Shown here: positions 7,239 to 59,232 of the stretch, one piece after another
Layout: every line of letters starts with the position of its first letter
Position numbering within the stretch: the first letter of the stretch is position 1
Source: Eledone cirrhosa
Taxonomy: Eukaryota
DNA length: 64,000 nucleotides
Direction: 5' to 3'
Assembly (NCBI GenBank): GCA_964016885.1
Contig: OZ024741.1
Span: 378,696,001 to 378,760,000 of the forward strand
Program-made: the position numbers and the translations under genes
Notes under the pieces: generated by a model
Told to the model about the DNA's origin: nothing
Database searches by the model: none
The model's input: only the letters and a program-made list of their open reading frames with translations

Positions 7239-11578
<4,340 letters not shown>

Positions 11579-23902: not shown

Positions 23903-25685
23903 TATTGGAAGATGATTCTATTAGTAGAGATAGGGGAGGGAGTTGTGTGTGTGTGTATATGGGTGTTATGTGTGTGTGTGCGAGTATGTTAAGATGGAGA
24001 GAATTTATATTTTGTGTGTGTATATATATATGTGTGTAGGAAAGTGGTTCTATTAGTAGAAATGGGGAGGGAGTTGTAGGTGTGGGGGTTGTTATGTGTG
24101 TGTATGGGTGTTATGTGTGTGGGAGTATGGTTAGCATGTTAAGACGAAGAGAATATATATATTGTGTGTGTGTGTATGTGTGTGTAGGAAAGTGATTCCT
24201 TTAGTAGGAATATTTTTGAATGAACATATTTTCCTTACTTTTTTGTGTTTGCTGTTGTATTGCCAGTGCATACGTATGTTAAGGTTTATTTAGTTCGGGT
24301 TTTTATTTTCTAAAGTAGAAGGTGTTATGTGTGTCTGTGTGTATGTCATATTGTTGTGTTGACATAATGTATATTAAACCTTATTTAATGTTGGTCTATA
24401 TTTTTGAATAAACATATTTTCCTTATTTATTCGCATTTGTTCTGTTGTATTGTTAGCGCAAAGGTAAAATGGGAAGACTTGGAATTTGGGTGTCTTATTA
24501 CTTGCGCAAATGTCTAGATATTCACTTAGTGGTATCTGTCTCGTGGTTGAATCTCGTAATTGTTGGCGATGAACTGTCATTCTGTTTCTGAGTGTGAGTT
24601 TAGTTTGTCCTATATAATCTTCATTGCATCCTTTACATTTAATGGCATAAAGTAGATTTTTTTATGAGCAAGTGAAGTGATTTTTTACAGTAAAATTTTG
24701 TCCTGATTTAAATGTATACGTGTTGCCTTCAATGAGGTGAGTGCAGGTTCCACAATTAGAGCGACCACATTTTTTTATACTTGGTTGTGGGTTTGTGGTA
24801 GGTAATTTGGCATTGGTGAGTAATGTTTTCAGTGATTTTGGTTGTCTTTTGCTTTTGATTATTTTGTGTGTTTCAAGGGCTTTTTTCATTCTTGGGTTTT
24901 GTTTTAGTAGTGGGATGTTATTGTGAATAGTGTTGTAACCTTCCGCATTTCTTGGGTTGTGTGTTGAGATATATGATAGAATATTGGACGTACCTTGAAT
25001 TTGTTTCTGTTTCCGTAATTCATCAATGCCTATTGCTTTAGCCCTTTCTATTCCATTATTTATTAGTAATAGTGTGTACTCTCTCTCTCGAGTAGAATTT
25101 CCTTTAATTCTTGAAGTCTTTTATTTCGCGTTTCATAATTGGAGACAATTGTGCAAATTCTTCTTGCTAGGTTAAAAGGAATGTTCGTCTTCGTGTGCTT
25201 TGGATGGTTGGAGGTGAATAGCAGATATTGTTTGGAATCTGTTGGTTTGTAGTGTATGTCAGTTTCGATATTTGTGTCTTTTTTTATGATTAAGATGTCC
25301 AGAAATGGGAGTTGATCTTGGCTGTATTCCATTGTGAATTGGATGTGGTTATTGATGCCGTTTATTAAGTTTTTGAAATCCTTCAGTTGGTCGAGTGTGT
25401 GGGACCAAAGAATGAGGCAATCATCCAAGTAGCGTTTCCAATTCTCTGATAAATATTTGTGGAAGTTCAATCCGTATTTTGATTTGGACTGTTCATATAT
25501 CTGGACTTCTAAGTATGCCATGACTAAGTTGGCATAAGTTGGAGCGGCTTTTGTACCCATCGCAGTCCCCGATATTTGCTTGTAAGTATTGCCATCGAAA
25601 TCAAAAAAGTTGTTCTGTAGGATGAATTTTAATCCCTCGGTGATGAAGCTTTTTTCTATTCTGTCAGGTATCTCATTGGGATATT

Positions 25686-25686
<1 letters not shown>
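23290..25686 (-). mobile_element. 5'-truncated Penelope-like element, Neptune-like
   Basis: RT/GIY-YIG remnant plus 3' region ending in an HHR-like motif at 23311-23350; 5' end truncated at (CT)n(AT)n. Confidence 0.8.
24374..25686 (-). pseudogene. Disrupted PLE RT + Zn-linker + GIY-YIG
   Basis: NNFFDFDGNTYKQISGTAMGTKAAPTYANL..WKRYLDD..PFLDI..YKPTD..SNHP; KCGRSNCGTC; LYAIKCKGC..YIGQT..LRNRMTVH. Confidence 0.92.
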
Positions 25687-25738
<52 letters not shown>

Positions 25739-27832: not shown

Positions 27833-27865
27833 ACACGGGTGTGTATGATTGTGTATAGAAGATTA

Positions 27866-28142
27866 TATTAATAAAAGGAATTCCAACTTTGTCTGATTTA
27901 CTCGTTATATTTACAATCCTTTAAAATTTATAATGGTATTAGAATGAAAGTTGAAAATTGCAAACTTGACTTTCACCACAGAATATGAACCTGAAGATTA
28001 CGAAAGCATGAAAGTACTTGTTCAATTAACACTTAACATTTAATATTCTACCATACTATTTCATTCTAATACCATGATGAATGTTAAAGGATTGTAAATC
28101 AAATGAGTAAATCAGACAAAGTTGGAATTCCTTTTATTAATA
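27866..28142. repeat. Inverted repeat (arms ~27866-27949 / ~28058-28142)
   Basis: tattaataaaaggaattccaactttgtctgatttactc / gagtaaatcagacaaagttggaattccttttattaata. Confidence 0.85.
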
Positions 28143-28154
28143 TATATATATAAA

Positions 28155-33449: not shown

Positions 33450-33800
33450 ATGAAATAATATAACAAATTAAGGCAAAGAGAAAGTAAGTGGGAGGAGTTA
33501 CAATATAAAGAGCAACACTAGAAAAAATAAATCAATAAAAAGTAGAAAACATGCATATATGTGAGCAAGCTCATACACACACCTACACACACACATATAT
33601 ATATATATATATGTAGATAAATCTACCAAGAGTTTACGGTAGTGTCCAATCCGTATGAAGAACTCAATGTATTCCGGATATCATGGAAAGAAGAGATGTA
33701 ATGAAAATCCACTTTCGGTGAAAGATAAACGGTATACAGAGTCAAGATAAAATATTAAACAAATAATGAACAAACAATTCCTTATATTAAACAAAAAAAG

Positions 33801-33955
33801 TTCACTATTTAACGATCGTTTCTAGGGTATATATGTGTTATAATTGGTATGCATATTTAACAGATCTATGTACAAAATTATACAAAATTATACAAATTAT
33901 CAAGATTAAATATACATACCTAACTCATATATACGCCGTCTTCAGAAATAATGAA
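33801..33955 (-). ncRNA. Type I hammerhead ribozyme motif with extended stem II (left arm copy)
   Basis: Mirror image of 44007-44161. Confidence 0.8.
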
Positions 33956-34723
33956 GTATATTTATTGATAATAACAACAATTCAAAATATCAGTTCAAAA
34001 TTGACCAATGAAAACACAAAGGGTTAAAAGCAGTTTGGTGTGTGTATATACATGTAAAAACCTTACACATATTTTACAATAATGTGTGTATAATTTGTAT
34101 GTGCATACTAAAAAGATGGATGCAAACACAAAATTTCAAGGTTAATATCTCTGTAAGCTTAATGCGCTGATAAGATACGCAATGATACTTATGGAGTCAA
34201 GCATATAAATATATTTTTTTCATACTCACACATATCAGTATAATCACACATACATGTGCGTATATGCATAAATATACACATAACCACGAACATACAAACA
34301 CACACACTCCCCCACTCACATTTATATATGTGGATATAAAATCATAAGCAAATAGAAATTAAGTCACTCACATAAAAACACTGGCACACACATTTCAAGA
34401 TCAAGATACAGAAATTAGGTGGGAGGGGGGGGGAGGGGTCAGTATTAGATTGTCAGACCAGACTGCCTAATATAAATGTATCTATAAATTAAGAAAAATA
34501 AAAAAATAAAAACAATAAAATATAATAAATATAATATAATGTACATACACATACAGATATACATACACATACATACATGTACGCGCACATAGAGATATTT
34601 ACACATACATACATACACACATACCTATACAGTCATACACACACATACATTTACACGAACATATACATACACATATAAAAAGATATAAATACACACACAC
34701 TAACGCGCAACACATACACACAT

Positions 34724-34762
<39 letters not shown>

Positions 34763-34871
34763 TACACACACACATAGACTCATATATATATATATATACA
34801 TATACATACATATATATAAACATATATATCCACACACTCATACCACCATAAATACACATACAAACACCCAC

Positions 34872-34905
<34 letters not shown>

Positions 34906-35112
34906 ACATACACACACGTACACATATATATATATATATACATATATACACATACATATATATATATACACACACATAAAAAACAGACATGCACATATAT
35001 ATATATATATATATATTTCATTACTCTTATATATACACATAGTATATATACATACACAACCTCACTTATACACATATACACATAAGTTATATTACAATAA
35101 TAATAAAGAATA

Positions 35113-35145
<33 letters not shown>

Positions 35146-35312
35146 TATATACACATATATATATATATACATACATACATACACATACATACATACACAT
35201 AAATATATACATACATAAATACACACATACGAATAAAGACATATATTCACACATAGACACCTATATACACATATATATATATATATATATATATATCTAT
35301 ATATATATATAT

Positions 35313-35349
<37 letters not shown>

Positions 35350-37085
35350 CACACACACACACACACACAGACACACATACACACTCACATATATATATAT
35401 ATATATGTGTAAGTGAGTGTGCGCAAATACACATATATATACACACACACATACAAACACACACAAACACATACATATGCATACGTGCACACACACACAC
35501 ATATATCACATAGATACGAAGATAAACATATAAATAGAGAGACATACAAATATATACAGAACCCATATACACATACATACAAACACGCATATACATATAC
35601 ATACATATATACACATATATATATTCCTATATACAAGCATACACATACATACACATATATACATATACATACACATATACATACCACACATTCACATACA
35701 CATACATATATAATACATATATATACATATATACACATACATATGTATGTACAATCATATATACACACTCAATCTTACATTCATATTTACATGCTCATAT
35801 ATGTATTTTTATATTTAGAAATAAATACCAAAACCTATATAGACACCCACCTACACATATATTCATACATATACGCTTACAAAAACAGATGATAATAGTA
35901 TGGGGGAAAGGGGGGGTTTGGAGAAGGGGATCAAAGTAAATATATGTTTCAAGAAACATATAATATTTTCCGTATCTTAATTCAATGTATGTTCTTACAT
36001 ATTTTCAGTGCTAGGAAATACGAAATCTATGCATCTCAAAACAAAAAAGTAAACCATTAATCATATGTTAACTAAACCAAAGATAGTCAACATATTGATT
36101 TCCAAGGTGTAAATTAGTTAGGTTTATAATATTTGAAGCAGAATTATGAAGTCAAACAGTAGTAGATTATTAATTACATTATAACTAAATTAAAGTTAAT
36201 AACGTTATGGTATCAATATTAGGAGATGAATTTAGTAATAGGGAAAAGAAACCCAAATAAAAATAAAATAAAGTATTACATCGGTAGTAGCATATAAATT
36301 ATATGTTAACTAAATTAAAAATTATATATTTATTTCAATAGTATACGTTAATTAGTATATGTTAATTAGGTATACAATACATAAAGCAGATATTGTATTT
36401 CATCAATAGCATAATATAATTATATGCAAATAAAAATCAAAATTAATACGCATACATATACATATACATACACATACACATATATATACATATACACACA
36501 TATATATATATATATACATATATATACACATATATACATATATACTCACATAAATATACATACAGATACACTTATAACACACACATATATACATATACAT
36601 ATAGATATACATATCTTTTTCAAAAAATTGCACAGAATATATTAACTAGGTATATATCCAAAACACATCCCATTCTATGATTACATGACATTCTGCAATT
36701 CGTCTGTACAAGGATACTAATTTTAAGCAAATTAAAATTAAAGTTTTAGGTTGATTAAAACTAAAACCAAATAATAAATATATTTCCAAAATGTATATTA
36801 ATTAGGTCTATAATACTAAAAATTCTTTCTCCGTCATTGGATACATGATATTATTTTGTTATATTTTATCTGTAAAAGAATTATAATAAAAAAAATTATA
36901 ATAAAAGGTTAAAATAAATTAAAATTAATCTATAAATTAAATTACTGAGTATATATTAGTAATATTTAAAGGTTTTTCAAAATTTATGATTACATAATAT
37001 GTTCTCATCTGTAATAAAATATTAATTAAATTAAATTTATAGGTTAACTAACATTTAAATTAAATTAAATTCTAGAATAATGTTA

Positions 37086-38665
37086 TTAATTAGGTTTATA
37101 ATATTTAAATGTTTTTTTTAGTTTATGATTACACGATATAATTAATTCCTGTCTTTTATTTAATAAGATATCCCTAGACTTCATTATTTCAAATAGTTCT
37201 TGGGAACATAATCTACATTCCTTTCTATTATTTTGATAAGGGGTGGCTCTTTTGAGCACACCCCAGGTCAAATCATATTTTATATTTTTATTTTTATAAC
37301 TATTGATTTTTTCTGCTAGAGATGTTGTATTAGCCAGTGCGGCATTTTTAAAGCTATGTTTGTGGGTATTATACCTTGTCTTAAAATTGTTAGAGGTAGC
37401 TCCTATATATGAGCAAATAGAATCTTTAGTTTTAACATTACATTTATAGACTATGTTGTTAACAAGACAATTCCCTTTTAATGGGCAGTTTGTTTTGTTT
37501 CTACAGTTACATCCTTTCGTTAATTCTGTATTTGAGGAGATATTATTGTTAATTTGATGTACTGGTGGTATACTTATGGTTTTCTTACATTTATATGCAT
37601 TATATGCACTTATATTTTGTTTTATGTTATTTGTTGTAGAGTATGAGAATTTAACTGTAGACCTATTTAAGATTTGATGGTATTTGTGGTTTGGCGGGAA
37701 GTTTTTCTCAAGGATATAAAAAAATTTTTTAGCAATATTATCCTTAACTTGTAAATTAAAAGGAGCATTATACCAAGTAACTCGTCTATTACGGTTTCTA
37801 TGTTGTTTATTATTTTTATTATTTTTATATGTTGTATCATGATTTTTACTAGGAGGATTAATGTTAATGATCTCACCACAACTATTTTTAGTTATATTTG
37901 TAGATTTAGGTGTTTTATCTTTTTTATTAGGAGTTTTATTATTAATATTTATTATAGTTGTATGATGAGTAGTTTTTTGAGGGTTACTATACTTTATATT
38001 AGAAGATTTAGTATTTTGGGGTATACTGTGGGTGGCATTTAGGTGTGTACTTTTCATTTGGTGTTTGTTGGTAATATTATGCTGTATGCTTTCAGTATTT
38101 TTAGTAGAAGGTATATACTCTAATCTATTTGTGTGGCCACTTCTATCTAGAGCTTCATTATAAAAGGTCGCATTTTTATCAAATACATCTTGGTTAGAAG
38201 AAAGGTTAGAAATTCTAAGTGATATATTATATGCAAGGTTTTTAAGGATAGATTTAGGGTGATTAGATTGTGAGTGTATGTAATGTAAGTTTTGGTTAGG
38301 TTTATGGTAAGGTTGGTATATACCCGTAGCTAAATCTAAAGTTATATCTAGGAAATTTACTACTTTACTTGTTTTTTCAAAAGTAATATTAAGATTATAA
38401 TAGTCTTTAAGGAAAGTTCTAATATGCTTTTTGTTTTTTTCGATTTCTGAAAGGCTAAGGTTGTTAGAAAGAAGAAGACAGTCATCACGATATAAACCAC
38501 CTTTGAGGTGGGGAAAAGAGGCATTTATGTTGAAAAGGAGAAAGAGGCCCACAAGATCAGTAATTTGGGCGGAATCGCTTGAACCCATAGTAATATCAAA
38601 AAGATTACTGTATGTGTTTCTGGTCCAGTATTCATTCTGAAATTCAATAAGTGTTTGTCTAGCAT
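37086..38665 (-). CDS. 5'-truncated PLE protein (RT C-terminal half, thumb, Cys linker, GIY-YIG), left copy; first ATG 38588
   Basis: MGSSDSAQITDLVGLFLL, GLYRDD, NFLDITL, PYHKPN..SNHP, WYNAPF, CNCRNKTNCPLKGNC, IVYKC..YIGAT..FKTR, CRLCSQE; no stops. Confidence 0.9.
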
Positions 38666-40873
38666 CTCCTTTTCAACATAAATGCCTCTTTTCCCCACCT
38701 CAAAGGTGGTTTATATCGTGATGACTGTCTTCTTCTTTCTAACAACCTTAGCCTTTCAGAAATCGAAAAAAACAAAAAGCATATTAGAACTTTCCTTAAA
38801 GACTATTATAATCTTAATATTACTTTTGAAAAAACAAGTAAAGTAGTAAATTTCCTAGATATAACTTTAGATTTAGCTACGGGTATATACCAACCTTACC
38901 ATAAACCTAACCAAAACTTACATTACATACACTCACAATCTAATCACCCTAAATCTATCCTTAAAAACCTTGCATATAATATATCACTTAGAATTTCTAA
39001 CCCTTCTATTAGACTTATATGTCCCTCCAAATCAGATATTGGAATAATTAGCAAAAAAATTTTAGATAGAGTCATCCCACAAATAAGAAAATACGTTATT
39101 TTACCACTCTGGGAAAACACCTCCCAGGTAATTAATTGGTTTAAAAATATTAGGTGTAAATCTTCTGCTTCTTTCCTACAATTTGATATAGATAATTACT
39201 ATTCTTCTATATCACCCATACTCCTGAACAAAGCATTAATATTTGCTAAAAATAGATCTAATTTAACTTCGGATGACATTAACATTATTACACATGCTAG
39301 ACAAACACTTATTGAATTTCAGAATGAATACTGGACCAGAAACACATACAGTAATCTTTTTGATATTACTATGGGTTCAAGCGATTCCGCCCAAATTACT
39401 GATCTTGTGGGCCTCTTTCTCCTTTTCAACATAAATGCCTCTTTTCCCCACCTCAAAGGTGGTTTATATCGTGATGACTGTCTTCTTCTTTCTAACAACC
39501 TTAGCCTTTCAGAAATCGAAAAAAACAAAAAGCATATTAGAACTTTCCTTAAAGACTATTATAATCTTAATATTACTTTTGAAAAAACAAGTAAAGTAGT
39601 AAATTTCCTAGATATAACTTTAGATTTAGCTACGGGTATATACCAACCTTACCATAAACCTAACCAAAACTTACATTACATACACTCACAATCTAATCAC
39701 CCTAAATCTATCCTTAAAAACCTTGCATATAATATATCACTTAGAATTTCTAACCTTTCTTCTAACCAAGATGTATTTGATAAAAATGCGACCTTTTATA
39801 ATGAAGCTCTAGATAGAAGTGGCCACAAAAATAGATTAGAGTATATACCTTCTACTAAAAATACTGAAAGCATACAGCATAATATTACCAACAAACACCA
39901 AATGAAAAGTACACACCTAAATGCCACCCACAGTATACCCCAAAATACTAAATCTTCTAATATAAAGTATAGTAACCCTCAAAAAACTACTCATCATACA
40001 ACTATAATAAATATTAATAATAAAACTCCTAATAAAAAAGATAAAACACCTAAATCTACAAATATAACTAAAAATAGTTGTGGTGAGATCATTAACATTA
40101 ATCCTCCTAGTAAAAATCATGATACAACATATAAAAATAATAAAAATAATAAACAACATAGAAACCGTAATAGACGAGTTACTTGGTATAATGCTCCTTT
40201 TAATTTACAAGTTAAGGATAATATTGCTAAAAAATTTTTTTATATCCTTGAGAAAAACTTCCCGCCAAACCACAAATACCATCAAATCTTAAATAGGTCT
40301 ACAGTTAAATTCTCATACTCTACAACAAATAACATAAAACAAAATATAAGTGCATATAATGCATATAAATGTAAGAAAACCATAAGTATACCACCAGTAC
40401 ATCAAATTAACAATAATATCTCCTCAAATACAGAATTAACGAAAGGATGTAACTGTAGAAACAAAACAAACTGCCCATTAAAAGGGAATTGTCTTGTTAA
40501 CAACATAGTCTATAAATGTAATGTTAAAACTAAAGATTCTATTTGCTCATATATAGGAGCTACCTCTAACAATTTTAAGACAAGGTATAATACCCACAAA
40601 CATAGCTTTAAAAATGCCGCACTGGCTAATACAACATCTCTAGCAGAAAAAATCAATAGTTATAAAAATAAAAATATAAAATATGATTTGACCTGGGGTG
40701 TGCTCAAAAGAGCCACCCCTTATCAAAATAATAGAAAGGAATGTAGATTATGTTCCCAAGAACTATTTGAAATAATGAAGTCTAGGGATATCTTATTAAA
40801 TAAAAGACAGGAATTAATTATATCGTGTAATCATAAACTAAAAAAAACATTTAAATATTATAAACCTAATTAA
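38663..40873 (+). CDS. Stop-free frame: duplicated RT fragment (38666-39002) fused in frame to the 5'-truncated PLE RT-GIY-YIG (39003-40873); first ATG 39371
   Basis: Manual translation LLFNINASFPHLKGGLYRDD...LRISN|PSIRLICPSKSDIG...FLQFDIDNYYSSI...FDITMGSSD...GLYRDD; 39371-38666=705, in frame. Confidence 0.88.
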   Translation, partial: HLLFNINASFPHLKGGLYRDDCLLLSNNLSLSEIEKNKKHIRTFLKDYYNLNITFEKTSKVVNFLDITLDLATGIYQPYHKPNQNLHYIHSQSNHPKSILKNLAYNISLRISNPSIRLICPSKSDIGIISKKILDRVIPQIRKYVILPLWENTSQVINWFKNIRCKSSASFLQFDIDNYYSSISPILLNKALIFAKNRSNLTSDDINIITHARQTLIEFQNEYWTRNTYSNLFDITMGSSDSAQITDLVGLFLLFNINASFPHLKGGLYRDDCLLLSNNLSLSEIEKNKKHIRTFLKDYYNLNITFEKTSKVVNFLDITLDLATGIYQPYHKPNQNLHYIHSQSNHPKSILKNLAYNISLRISNLSSNQDVFDKNATFYNEALDRSGHKNRLEYIPSTKNTESIQHNITNKHQMKSTHLNATHSIPQNTKSSNIKYSNPQKTTHHTTIININNKTPNKKDKTPKSTNITKNSCGEIININPPSKNHDTTYKNNKNNKQHRNRNRRVTWYNAPFNLQVKDNIAKKFFYILEKNFPPNHKYHQILNRSTVKFSYSTTNNIKQNISAYNAYKCKKTISIPPVHQINNNISSNTELTKGCNCRNKTNCPLKGNCLVNNIVYKCNVKTKDSICSYIGATSNNFKTRYNTHKHSFKNAALANTTSLAEKINSYKNKNIKYDLTWGVLKRATPYQNNRKECRLCSQELFEIMKSRDILLNKRQELIISCNHKLKKTFKYYKPN
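38666..39002 (+). repeat. 337-bp direct repeat of 39419-39755 (also inverted to left arm 38204-38540)
   Basis: Direct reading. Confidence 0.95.
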
Positions 40874-42609
40874 TAACATTATTCTAGAATTTAATTTAAT
40901 TTAAATGTTAGTTAACCTATAAATTTAATTTAATTAATATTTTATTACAGATGAGAAAATATTATGTAATCATAAATTTTGAAAAACCTTTAAATATTAC
41001 TAATATATACTCAGTAATTTAATTTATAGATTAATTTTAATTTATTTTAACCTTTTATTATAATTTTTTTTATTATAATTCTTTTACAGATAAAATATAA
41101 CAAAATAATATCATGTATCCAATGACGGAGAAAGAATTTTTAGTATTATAGACCTAATTAATATACATTTTGGAAATATATTTATTATTTGGTTTTAGTT
41201 TTAATCAACCTAAAACTTTAATTTTAATTTGCTTAAAATTAGTATCCTTGTACAGACGAATTGCAGAATGTCATGTAATCATAGAATGGGATGTGTTTTG
41301 GATATATACCTAGTTAATATATTCTGTGCAATTTTTTGAAAAAGATATGTATATCTATATGTATATGTATATATGTGTGTGTTATAAGTGTATCTGTATG
41401 TATATTTATGTGAGTATATATGTATATATGTGTATATATATGTATATATATATATATATGTGTGTATATGTATATATATGTGTATGTGTATGTATATGTA
41501 TATGTATGCGTATTAATTTTGATTTTTATTTGCATATAATTATATTATGCTATTGATGAAATACAATATCTGCTTTATGTATTGTATACCTAATTAACAT
41601 ATACTAATTAACGTATACTATTGAAATAAATATATAATTTTTAATTTAGTTAACATATAATTTATATGCTACTACCGATGTAATACTTTATTTTATTTTT
41701 ATTTGGGTTTCTTTTCCCTATTACTAAATTCATCTCCTAATATTGATACCATAACGTTATTAACTTTAATTTAGTTATAATGTAATTAATAATCTACTAC
41801 TGTTTGACTTCATAATTCTGCTTCAAATATTATAAACCTAACTAATTTACACCTTGGAAATCAATATGTTGACTATCTTTGGTTTAGTTAACATATGATT
41901 AATGGTTTACTTTTTTGTTTTGAGATGCATAGATTTCGTATTTCCTAGCACTGAAAATATGTAAGAACATACATTGAATTAAGATACGGAAAATATTATA
42001 TGTTTCTTGAAACATATATTTACTTTGATCCCCTTCTCCAAACCCCCCCTTTCCCCCATACTATTATCATCTGTTTTTGTAAGCGTATATGTATGAATAT
42101 ATGTGTAGGTGGGTGTCTATATAGGTTTTGGTATTTATTTCTAAATATAAAAATACATATATGAGCATGTAAATATGAATGTAAGATTGAGTGTGTATAT
42201 ATGATTGTACATACATATGTATGTGTATATATGTATATATATGTATTATATATGTATGTGTATGTGAATGTGTGGTATGTATATGTGTATGTATATGTAT
42301 ATATGTGTATGTATGTGTATGCTTGTATATAGGAATATATATATGTGTATATATGTATGTATATGTATATGCGTGTTTGTATGTATGTGTATATGGGTTC
42401 TGTATATATTTGTATGTCTCTCTATTTATATGTTTATCTTCGTATCTATGTGATATATGTGTGTGTGTGTGCACGTATGCATATGTATGTGTTTGTGTGT
42501 GTTTGTATGTGTGTGTGTATATATATGTGTATTTGCGCACACTCACTTACACATATATATATATATATGTGTGAGTGTGTATGTGTGTCTGTGTGTGTGT
42601 GTGTGTGTG

Positions 42610-42646
<37 letters not shown>

Positions 42647-42813
42647 ATATATATATATATAGATATATATATATATATATATATATATGTGTATATAGGT
42701 GTCTATGTGTGAATATATGTCTTTATTCGTATGTGTGTATTTATGTATGTATATATTTATGTGTATGTATGTATGTGTATGTATGTATGTATATATATAT
42801 ATATGTGTATATA

Positions 42814-42846
<33 letters not shown>

Positions 42847-43053
42847 TATTCTTTATTATTATTGTAATATAACTTATGTGTATATGTGTATAAGTGAGGT
42901 TGTGTATGTATATATACTATGTGTATATATAAGAGTAATGAAATATATATATATATATATATATGTGCATGTCTGTTTTTTATGTGTGTGTATATATATA
43001 TATGTATGTGTATATATGTATATATATATATATATGTGTACGTGTGTGTATGT

Positions 43054-43087
<34 letters not shown>

Positions 43088-43196
43088 GTGGGTGTTTGTA
43101 TGTGTATTTATGGTGGTATGAGTGTGTGGATATATATGTTTATATATATGTATGTATATGTATATATATATATATATGAGTCTATGTGTGTGTGTA

Positions 43197-43237
<41 letters not shown>

Positions 43238-44006
43238 ATGTGTGTATGTGTTGCGCGTTAGTGTGTGTGTATTTATATCTTTTTATATGTGTATGTATAT
43301 GTTCGTGTAAATGTATGTGTGTGTATGACTGTATAGGTATGTGTGTATGTATGTATGTGTAAATATCTCTATGTGCGCGTACATGTATGTATGTGTATGT
43401 ATATCTGTATGTGTATGTACATTATATTATATTTATTATATTTTATTGTTTTTATTTTTTTATTTTTCTTAATTTATAGATACATTTATATTAGGCAGTC
43501 TGGTCTGACAATCTAATACTGACCCCTCCCCCCCCCCTCCCACCTAATTTCTGTATCTTGATCTTGAAATGTGTGTGCCAGTGTTTTTATGTGAGTGACT
43601 TAATTTCTATTTGCTTATGATTTTATATCCACATATATAAATGTGAGTGGGGGAGTGTGTGTGTTTGTATGTTCGTGGTTATGTGTATATTTATGCATAT
43701 ACGCACATGTATGTGTGATTATACTGATATGTGTGAGTATGAAAAAAATATATTTATATGCTTGACTCCATAAGTATCATTGCGTATCTTATCAGCGCAT
43801 TAAGCTTACAGAGATATTAACCTTGAAATTTTGTGTTTGCATCCATCTTTTTAGTATGCACATACAAATTATACACACATTATTGTAAAATATGTGTAAG
43901 GTTTTTACATGTATATACACACACCAAACTGCTTTTAACCCTTTGTGTTTTCATTGGTCAATTTTGAACTGATATTTTGAATTGTTGTTATTATCAATAA
44001 ATATAC

Positions 44007-44161
44007 TTCATTATTTCTGAAGACGGCGTATATATGAGTTAGGTATGTATATTTAATCTTGATAATTTGTATAATTTTGTATAATTTTGTACATAGATCT
44101 GTTAAATATGCATACCAATTATAACACATATATACCCTAGAAACGATCGTTAAATAGTGAA
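44007..44161 (+). ncRNA. Type I hammerhead ribozyme motif with extended stem II (right arm copy)
   Basis: ttcattattt CTGAAGA [116-nt stem II region] GAAAC gatc GTT aaatagtgaa; 10-bp stem I, palindromic loop 3. Confidence 0.8.
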
Positions 44162-44206
44162 CTTTTTTTGTTTAATATAAGGAATTGTTTGTTCATTATT
44201 TGTTTA

Positions 44207-44261
<55 letters not shown>

Positions 44262-54619: not shown

Positions 54620-54854
54620 TATTGAAGTTTGCTTGAAGCATTGTGGAACAATAAGTAAATATCTTTAAGTCGTTTGGAAGCCTCGACAATGCAAATGGGT
54701 AAATCTCCGGGTAACAAGGTCCGGTGGTGGAGAGAGTGATGTAAGTGGGTGTACGTACACCCACTTATATCTCTCTCTTCACCACCGGACCTTGTTACCC
54801 GGAGATTTACCCATTTGCATTGTCGAGGCTTCCAAACGACTTAAAGATATTTAC
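54615..54854. mobile_element. Spacerless fold-back (arms 54655-54754 / 54755-54854, extension 54615-54654) in (AT)n
   Basis: 100-bp arms, 3 mismatches seen, centre gtac|gtac. Confidence 0.85.

Positions 54855-54888
<34 letters not shown>

Positions 54889-58619: not shown

Positions 58620-59232
<613 letters not shown>

What the first reader, a model, noticed from the sequence alone, without database searches (positions are those of the whole stretch)
38663..40873. Palindrome spacer creates an in-frame chimeric RT with two YRDD motifs
Seen: the 628-bp spacer is not foreign DNA. 38666-39002 is an exact copy of 39419-39755 (YRDD, NFLD, KPN, SNHP). It joins at aacc(c/t)ttct micro-similarity to upstream RT motifs (PSIRLICP, FLQFDIDNYYSSI) without breaking the frame, giving 736 stop-free codons. 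The ORF track misses this because there is no start codon before 39371. Inference: two consecutive template jumps in one insertion event (inversion at 38665/38666, backward jump at 39002/39003). The preserved frame may be chance (1 in 3).
Basis: partly seen in the sequence, partly recalled or inferred. Interest (0 to 1): 0.75.

Follow-up and report, generated by a model that had tools for sequence, protein, structure and literature searches.

The report
Stuttered junction in jumping-gene palindrome
This is a young head-to-head insertion of a common Penelope-type jumping gene in which 337 bases of its own enzyme gene were copied twice, likely by a slip during insertion; the doubled reading frame has no start codon and is likely inert, although a separate slip from the same spot exists at a second locus.

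Summary
33610-44215 is one insertion of a young Penelope-like family (Hydra-type motifs; 970 exact copies of a marker site): two 5'-truncated arms head to head in a (TA)n tract. The spacer is a re-copied 337-bp piece plus normal upstream ORF. Head-to-head joins are routine (40 of 100 unselected copies), often with locally re-copied filler, and 2 of 100 copies carry long back-jumps, all out of frame. The 736-codon frame has no ATG before 39371; its first YRDD lacks motifs 1, 2, A and B'. In-frame is the expected outcome: 55-68% of comparable microhomologies in this ORF are in frame, not a third. The window's junction is unique in the assembly. New: one independent locus (G000:C14) jumps from the same donor to an acceptor 12 nt away (765 bp, in frame), giving a 927-codon frame with two near-complete RT cores. 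This suggests a slip-prone site, not a propagated dual-RT element. Read and RNA support could not be tested. The scan's earlier notes describe head-to-head Penelope insertions elsewhere in this genome; none of those I was shown describes this duplication.

The parts
33610..38665 (-). Left arm: 5'-truncated element copy, U6060 to U1015 (3' region plus ORF from inside the RT, between motifs A and B')
33610..33746 (-). 137-nt 'tail' (U5924-6060) present on the left arm only
33595..33612 (.). (TA)n target tract, left side
33801..33955 (-). Hammerhead-like motif, left-arm copy
   Evidence: motif by eye plus fold; no Rfam hit
38665..38666 (.). Head-to-head (inversion) junction, U1015 antisense to U1140 sense, 1 nt shared
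38666..39002 (+). Re-copied piece U1140-1476: YRDD (38714-38725), NFLD, KPN and start of the thumb; exact copy of 39419-39755
38996..39007 (+). Back-jump junction U1476 to U724 (753 nt, in frame) inside a 10-of-12 imperfect repeat coding Ser-Asn in both places
39003..44215 (+). Right arm: 5'-truncated element copy, U724 to U5923
38663..40873 (+). 736-codon open frame without a start codon; first in-frame ATG at 39371 would give 500 aa with one YRDD
39002..39755 (+). RT motifs 2 to 7 of the right arm (PSIRLI 39002, FDIDNYY 39182, TMGS 39368, YRDD 39467, NFLD 39602); RWR, DKT and motif 1 are absent from the window
   Evidence: motif names recalled
40448..40873 (+). CxCx5C linker (40448) and C-terminal GIY-YIG-type endonuclease (IVYKC 40505, YIG 40550, CRLC 40742, CNH 40826)
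   Evidence: features as in PMC8557442 section 11
44007..44161 (+). Hammerhead-like motif: CUGAAGA and GAAA core, 10-bp stem I, palindromic stem III, about 110-nt stem II
44213..44260 (.). (TA)n target tract, right side

Best explanation
The locus is one head-to-head insertion of a Penelope-like retrotransposon whose right arm carries a re-copied 337-base piece of its own RT gene, likely made when the growing DNA strand slipped back 753 bases between two short Ser-Asn-coding repeats during insertion; the resulting double-YRDD frame is likely never translated. Shown: the anatomy, the family-wide frequency of head-to-head joins with re-copied filler, the microhomology, the lack of an ATG, and an independent second jump from the same donor. 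Inferred: both strands of a cut (TA)n target primed cDNA, one at each of the family's two start sites (U6060, U5923); the left cDNA stopped at U1015; the right one stopped at U724, re-annealed at U1476 (six contiguous pairs with one G-U wobble if the template was RNA), ran on to U1140, and the two ends were joined. Not resolved: whether the slip happened in first-strand (RT on RNA) or second-strand synthesis, and whether the element's RT or a host end-joining polymerase did it.
For: Arms 4.9 kb with 3 substitutions and 2 indels, ending at U6060 and U5923 in (TA)n like other copies. Each arm has sequence the other lacks, so two primings are needed; a purified Penelope protein cuts and extends both target strands and starts at two adjacent sites (PMC11167929). 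In 100 of 100 listed marker hits on contig C1: 40 have an inverted neighbour (32 distinct junctions: 20 with 1-9 nt overlap, 3 blunt, 9 with filler), 27 reach the 5' end, 30 are simply truncated, 3 have a same-strand jump. Of the 7 fillers of 7 nt or more, 4 have an exact local source of 10-33 nt found by script, 2 more by eye, 1 none. L096 has the window's architecture (inversion, about 146-nt downstream piece, back-jump) and L132 two jumps; all 3 jumps are out of frame. 243 of 425 ORF-internal 10-of-12 repeats are in frame (57%; 55-68% over six settings). Only 2 junctions of this kind in the assembly against 970 normal sites. The C14 copies share 4 substitutions absent from the window's copies, so the two events are independent. 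None of the best 150 protein relatives has a doubled RT core.
Against: Both jumps from this donor are in frame (2 of 2), which a selection model would also predict. The repeat used is only rank 211 (753 nt) and 426 (765 nt) of 2975 scored internal repeats, so microhomology alone does not explain why the site was used twice; no strong hairpin was seen there. The inversion junction in the window has only 1 nt of overlap. The C14 frame does have ATGs (codons 12 and 14, from the antisense arm), though 562 of 2142 antisense positions (26%) would supply one by chance.
Confidence: 0.77

Rival explanations
1. The duplication arose after insertion, by DNA repair or replication slippage inside the 10.6-kb palindrome.
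For: Imperfect homology on both sides of the crossover (10 of 12; 14 of 19 at C14) also fits microhomology-mediated DNA repair; long palindromes are unstable (general knowledge).
Against: A later tandem duplication of U724-1476 would leave two whole copies, but the first copy begins at U1140, exactly at the inversion junction. All four loci with a back-jump have it next to the 5' end of an arm, and none of 27 copies that reach the 5' end shows one. The reciprocal deletion was not found.
Confidence: 0.12
2. The duplication was already in a parent element: a full-length copy with a doubled RT core in frame (about 1064 aa) was transcribed and transposed, and the window and C14 loci are truncated daughters of two such parents.
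For: Both jumps are in frame; in both loci the opposite arm stops before it would cross the junction, so it cannot exclude a duplicated RNA. PMC3846280 (passages) reports frame-preserving inserts in Penelope ORFs and proposes template jumps as their source.
Against: No parent in the assembly: each junction occurs once. Two parents in two sub-lineages would both have to be missing. Duplicated copies are identical within each locus. No doubled core in 150 relatives.
Confidence: 0.05
3. The extra piece or the palindrome is an assembly or read-chimera artefact.
For: PMC8557442 (passages) notes that such structures trouble assemblies.
Against: The asymmetric ends match the family's two fixed 3' ends; the arms are not identical; the junction sits in a microhomology; an independent locus with other substitutions uses the same donor; short re-copied fillers are common in the family.
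Confidence: 0.05

Closest known systems
Hydra clade of C-terminal EN+ Penelope-like elements (Craig et al. 2021, PMC8557442; section 11 read, other passages seen, supplements not seen)
   Same: RT then C-terminal GIY-YIG, RW[R/K], DKT, CxCx5C linker, CxxC and CxH in the endonuclease, hammerhead motif, (TA)n targets.
   Different: Unit is about 6.06 kb, not under 3 kb; hammerhead has a very long stem II; tail is 137 nt, not 30-40 nt; no tree was built.
Inverted 5'-truncated copy and one-sided tail of EN+ PLE insertions (PMC8557442 Fig. 2 legend; PMC3846280 passages; PMC11167929 parts 1-2 of 4)
   Same: Head-to-head truncated arms, tail on one arm, two start sites.
   Different: A long re-copied piece at the junction and a reused jump site are not described in what I read.
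L1 twin priming and R2 snap-back/template-jump junctions (PMC2912911 and PMC11371274, passages)
   Same: Two primers on one target, cDNA ends joined at microhomology, extra templated synthesis before the join.
   Different: In L1 twin priming the second primer starts internally and the arms barely overlap; here both arms start at the 3' end and overlap for kilobases. A pure snap-back cannot give both arms here.
Frame-preserving asparagine-rich inserts in Adineta vaga Penelopes (PMC3846280, passages)
   Same: Chimeric ORF kept open, proposed template jumps aligned by short Asn-coding repeats.
   Different: Those inserts are non-RT sequence shared by several copies; here the insert is the RT itself and each junction is single-copy.

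Membership tests
EN+ Penelope-like elements | Single ORF with RT and GIY-YIG endonuclease | tested here: met
   813-aa ORF in full-length copies with RT motifs and IVYKC...YIG. Read by motif: Pfam gave no RT or GIY-YIG hit and PDB nothing significant; 5282 relatives at E<=0.001, unnamed.
EN+ Penelope-like elements | Tandem/partial-tandem and inverted 5'-truncated copies, one-sided tail | tested here: met
   Tandem 6.05-kb units; 40 of 100 copies with inverted neighbour; ends at U5923 or U6060.
Hydra clade | RWK motif and DKT in place of DKG | tested here: met
   RWR at aa 37 (conservative variant) and DKT at aa 115 of the full-length protein.
Hydra clade | CxCX5C linker; CxxC and CxH around the conserved E and N | tested here: met
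   CNCRNKTNC aa 673, CRLC aa 771, CNH aa 799.
Hydra clade | CCHH motif absent from the endonuclease | tested here: inconclusive
   Two cysteines lie between IVY and YIG but nine residues apart, not as CxxC (by eye); the paper's supplementary alignment was not seen.
Hydra clade | Hammerhead ribozyme motif | tested here: met
   Core, stem I and palindromic stem III at U5715-5869; no Rfam hammerhead hit among 51 matches, probably because of the long stem II; cleavage untested.
Hydra clade | Insertion into (TA)n | tested here: met
   Both window ends and the non-read-through ends in fetched loci run into TA repeats.
Hydra clade | Generally short, under 3 kb (a tendency in the paper, not a strict criterion) | tested here: not met
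   Unit about 6.06 kb with a long microsatellite-rich 3' region.
Hydra clade | Placement in the Hydra branch of an RT tree | not tested
   No named reference proteins were fetched; Hydra membership is likely, by motifs only.
Naiad/Chlamys | N-terminal GIY-YIG endonuclease | tested here: not met
   Endonuclease is C-terminal; rejected.
Functional dual-RT retroelement (hypothetical) | Start codon and native 5' end upstream of both cores; junction propagated to more than one locus | tested here: not met
   No ATG before 39371; each junction single-copy.

The most novel reading that the evidence does not exclude
Penelope elements with an in-frame doubled RT core are transposition-competent: the reused jump site repeatedly makes such 1064-1068-aa elements, and the window and C14 loci are truncated daughters of parents that this assembly does not hold.
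Probability: 0.05. Interest if true: 0.7.

Novelty: new member of a known kind. Interest (0 to 1): 0.28.

Why it matters
As a protein-coding chimera it matters little. As a mechanistic trace it has some value: how Penelope elements form their inverted structures is still open (PMC8557442 discussion, PMC11167929), and this family gives about 1000 young copies whose junctions argue for two separately primed cDNAs with slip-back and re-copying before the join. A jump site used twice independently gives a defined RNA substrate for an in vitro test. It also shows a route by which an RT core can be duplicated in frame, since repeats inside coding sequence are mostly codon-phased.

Tried and rejected
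Read support: no RNA holder listed. Contigs of runs X1, X2, X4, X5 (32 of 980 pieces shown) and X1, X2, X3, X6 (22 of 56 pieces shown) showed no piece bridging either junction. These are contigs of unnamed samples that may not be the assembled individual, and they drop rare variants, so this is no evidence either way. Naiad membership: my first guess from memory, rejected. Common origin of the window and C14 junctions through a 12-nt deletion: rejected by substitutions private to C14. Further jumps at this site: other hits (4 of 5, 2 of 3, 4 of 4, 3 of 3) are point variants or a 12-nt deletion. Reciprocal deletion: 0 hits. Back-splicing: no GT/AG at the junction on either strand (by eye). Strong RNA hairpin at the donor: only a weak fold (no shuffle control run). 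One search was too loose to test the inversion junction, so its uniqueness rests only on the DNA search, which scored 40 of 2230 candidates. Pfam, Rfam and PDB searches gave nothing useful. No structure prediction was run, as it would not change the verdict. Six paper searches listed no paper on re-copied junction pieces in Penelope elements; the library is partial.

Full report
Observation. The sequence facts hold. The inverted arms meet at 38665 and 39294 around a 628-nt spacer. 38665-39002 equals 39418-39755 exactly, 338 nt. 38663-40873 is open for 736 codons and has two YRDD. In-frame ATGs occur only at 39371, 39902 and 40775.

The element. A DNA search of the own genome scored 40 of 2230 candidates and returned near-identical copies, many in 6.05-kb tandem units. 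I used one natural unit, L034:2693-8752, as coordinate system U. [quoted passage not shown] These match the description of the Hydra clade of Penelope-like elements (PMC8557442 section 11); the Hydra lead came from earlier scan notes, and I checked the motifs myself but built no tree. A hammerhead-like motif with a long stem II lies at U5715-5869; Rfam did not detect it. A 27-nt marker at the donor site has 970 exact matches in the assembly.

Anatomy of the locus. Left arm 33610-38665 is U6060 to U1015 in antisense; 38666-39002 is U1140-1476; 39003-44215 is U724-5923. Both outer ends run into one (TA)n tract, and U5923 and U6060 are the two ends at which fetched copies stop. The arms differ by 3 substitutions and 2 small indels over 4.9 kb. 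The left arm holds U5924-6060, which the right lacks; the right holds U724-1014, which the left lacks. Neither can therefore be a fold-back copy of the other, and I infer two cDNAs primed from the two target strands. A purified Penelope protein cuts and extends both strands and starts at two adjacent sites that define the tail (PMC11167929, parts 1-2 of 4).

How common this is. I examined all 100 marker hits listed (the first 100 on contig C1; loci). 40 have an inverted neighbour at the 5' end, 27 reach the 5' end, 30 are truncated against other DNA and 3 have a same-strand jump. The 40 make 32 distinct junctions: 20 overlap by 1-9 nt (alignment overlap), 3 are blunt, 9 have filler. Of the 7 fillers of 7 nt or more, 4 have an exact local source of 10-33 nt found by script (L041, L090, L106, L146), 2 look local by eye (L060, L117) and 1 has none (L131). 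L096 repeats the window's design (inversion, about 146 nt from U2442-2587, jump back to U1060) and L132 has two jumps; L143 is a skip inside a tandem. The three ORF-internal jumps of L096 and L132 are out of frame. The window's spacer is thus the long end of a family-wide habit of re-copying before the join.

The junction and the frame. The natural sequence before U724 ends TCTAATC, the donor ends TCTAACC; over 12 nt the two agree at 10, with one exactly shared base at the crossover. Both code Ser-Asn in the same phase. Among all ORF-internal repeats of this quality, 243 of 425 are in frame; six settings give 55-68%. An open frame is the expected result, not a 1-in-3 event. The first YRDD piece lacks motifs 1, 2, A and B' (no first catalytic aspartate); the second RT lacks the first 190 residues including RWR, DKT and motif 1 (motif roles from general RT knowledge). 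Translation from 39371 would give 500 aa with one YRDD. The element's 5' UTR is absent from both arms.

Recurrence. The window's junction occurs once in the assembly. A gapped pattern covering all crossovers in this neighbourhood finds exactly two: the window and G000:C14:15,645,4xx. At C14 the same donor (U1476-78) joins U712, 12 nt upstream: a 765-nt duplication, in frame, again on one arm of a head-to-head pair. All three C14 copies of the shared stretch carry four substitutions that the window's copies lack, so the events are independent. The C14 frame is 927 codons, has two near-complete RT cores and ATGs at codons 12 and 14 from the antisense arm; 562 of 2142 antisense positions would supply such an ATG. 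My arithmetic, after the fact: 2 long back-jumps per 100 copies gives roughly 19 in 970; a second hit in the searched neighbourhood has a chance near 0.003 if jumps are uniform over about 3 million pairs and near 0.06 if limited to the roughly 1000 best repeats. This suggests a slip-prone site but does not prove one. No reciprocal deletion was found.

Polarity. If RT slipped on RNA, the window's cDNA end makes six contiguous pairs with one G-U wobble; if the sense strand slipped on cDNA, C14 fits better (8 of 9 pairs). At C14 the re-copied piece reaches U661, further than either main arm, so its template was the RNA or a longer cDNA. The data do not decide the polarity or the enzyme.

Wider search. 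The duplicated 251-aa unit has 5282 relatives at E<=0.001 among 1.84 billion representatives; of the best 150, 3 have more than one matched stretch and none a doubled core with two YxDD; P0123 repeats a fragment of about 69 aa in tandem. A doubled core would score high, so its absence from the top is informative for this library only.

Literature seen. PMC8557442: passages and section 11, supplements not seen; they may bear on the CCHH and hammerhead features. PMC11167929: parts 1-2 of 4. PMC3846280, PMC11371274, PMC2912911: passages. Inverted truncated copies are standard for PLEs; PMC3846280 proposes frame-preserving template jumps for other inserts. Six searches listed nothing on re-copied junction pieces in PLEs.

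Verdict. Real, correctly described, and most likely an inert by-product of Penelope insertion (0.77). Reads and expression are untested. Interest 0.28, carried by the independent second jump and the junction census rather than by the chimeric frame.

Noticed in passing
L002 (G000:C14:15643397-15647244), frame at locus 2911-131 on the minus strand: 927-codon frame with two near-complete RT cores and ATGs from the antisense arm; a better 'double RT' than the window's, single copy.
   Followed up: yes
window 44007-44161 (+) and 33801-33955 (-): Hammerhead-like motif with a stem II of about 110 nt that Rfam misses; predicted cleavage triplet looks like GUU; activity untested.
   Followed up: partly
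U1000-1100 (window 39279-39379), loci: 5' truncation points cluster here: 12 of 73 in one 100-nt bin, against 1-9 in the other bins; L096 and L132 both resume at U1060. Mirror pairs are counted twice and no test was run.
   Followed up: no
L042 and L046: 12-nt in-frame deletion between the two TTCTAACC repeats at the donor site in two older copies.
   Followed up: partly
window 41360-43420 and its mirror: The element carries about 2 kb of mixed (TA)/(TG) microsatellite in its own 3' region, making the unit about twice the size reported for Hydra elements.
   Followed up: no
window 7239-11578: Three near-identical direct copies of about 1.0-1.4 kb (over 99% identity), a separate tandem repeat.
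   Followed up: no
window 25063-25698 (-): Fragment with a weak RVT_1 match (E 7e-4, below the curated cut-off): another, decayed retroelement.
   Followed up: no
window 58677-59029, 54651-54858, 27864-28144: Smaller self-complementary (palindromic) elements, possibly head-to-head insertions of other families.
   Followed up: no
P0123: Unnamed relative made of tandem in-frame repeats of a roughly 69-aa RT fragment; may be a similar slip or an assembly artefact.
   Followed up: no
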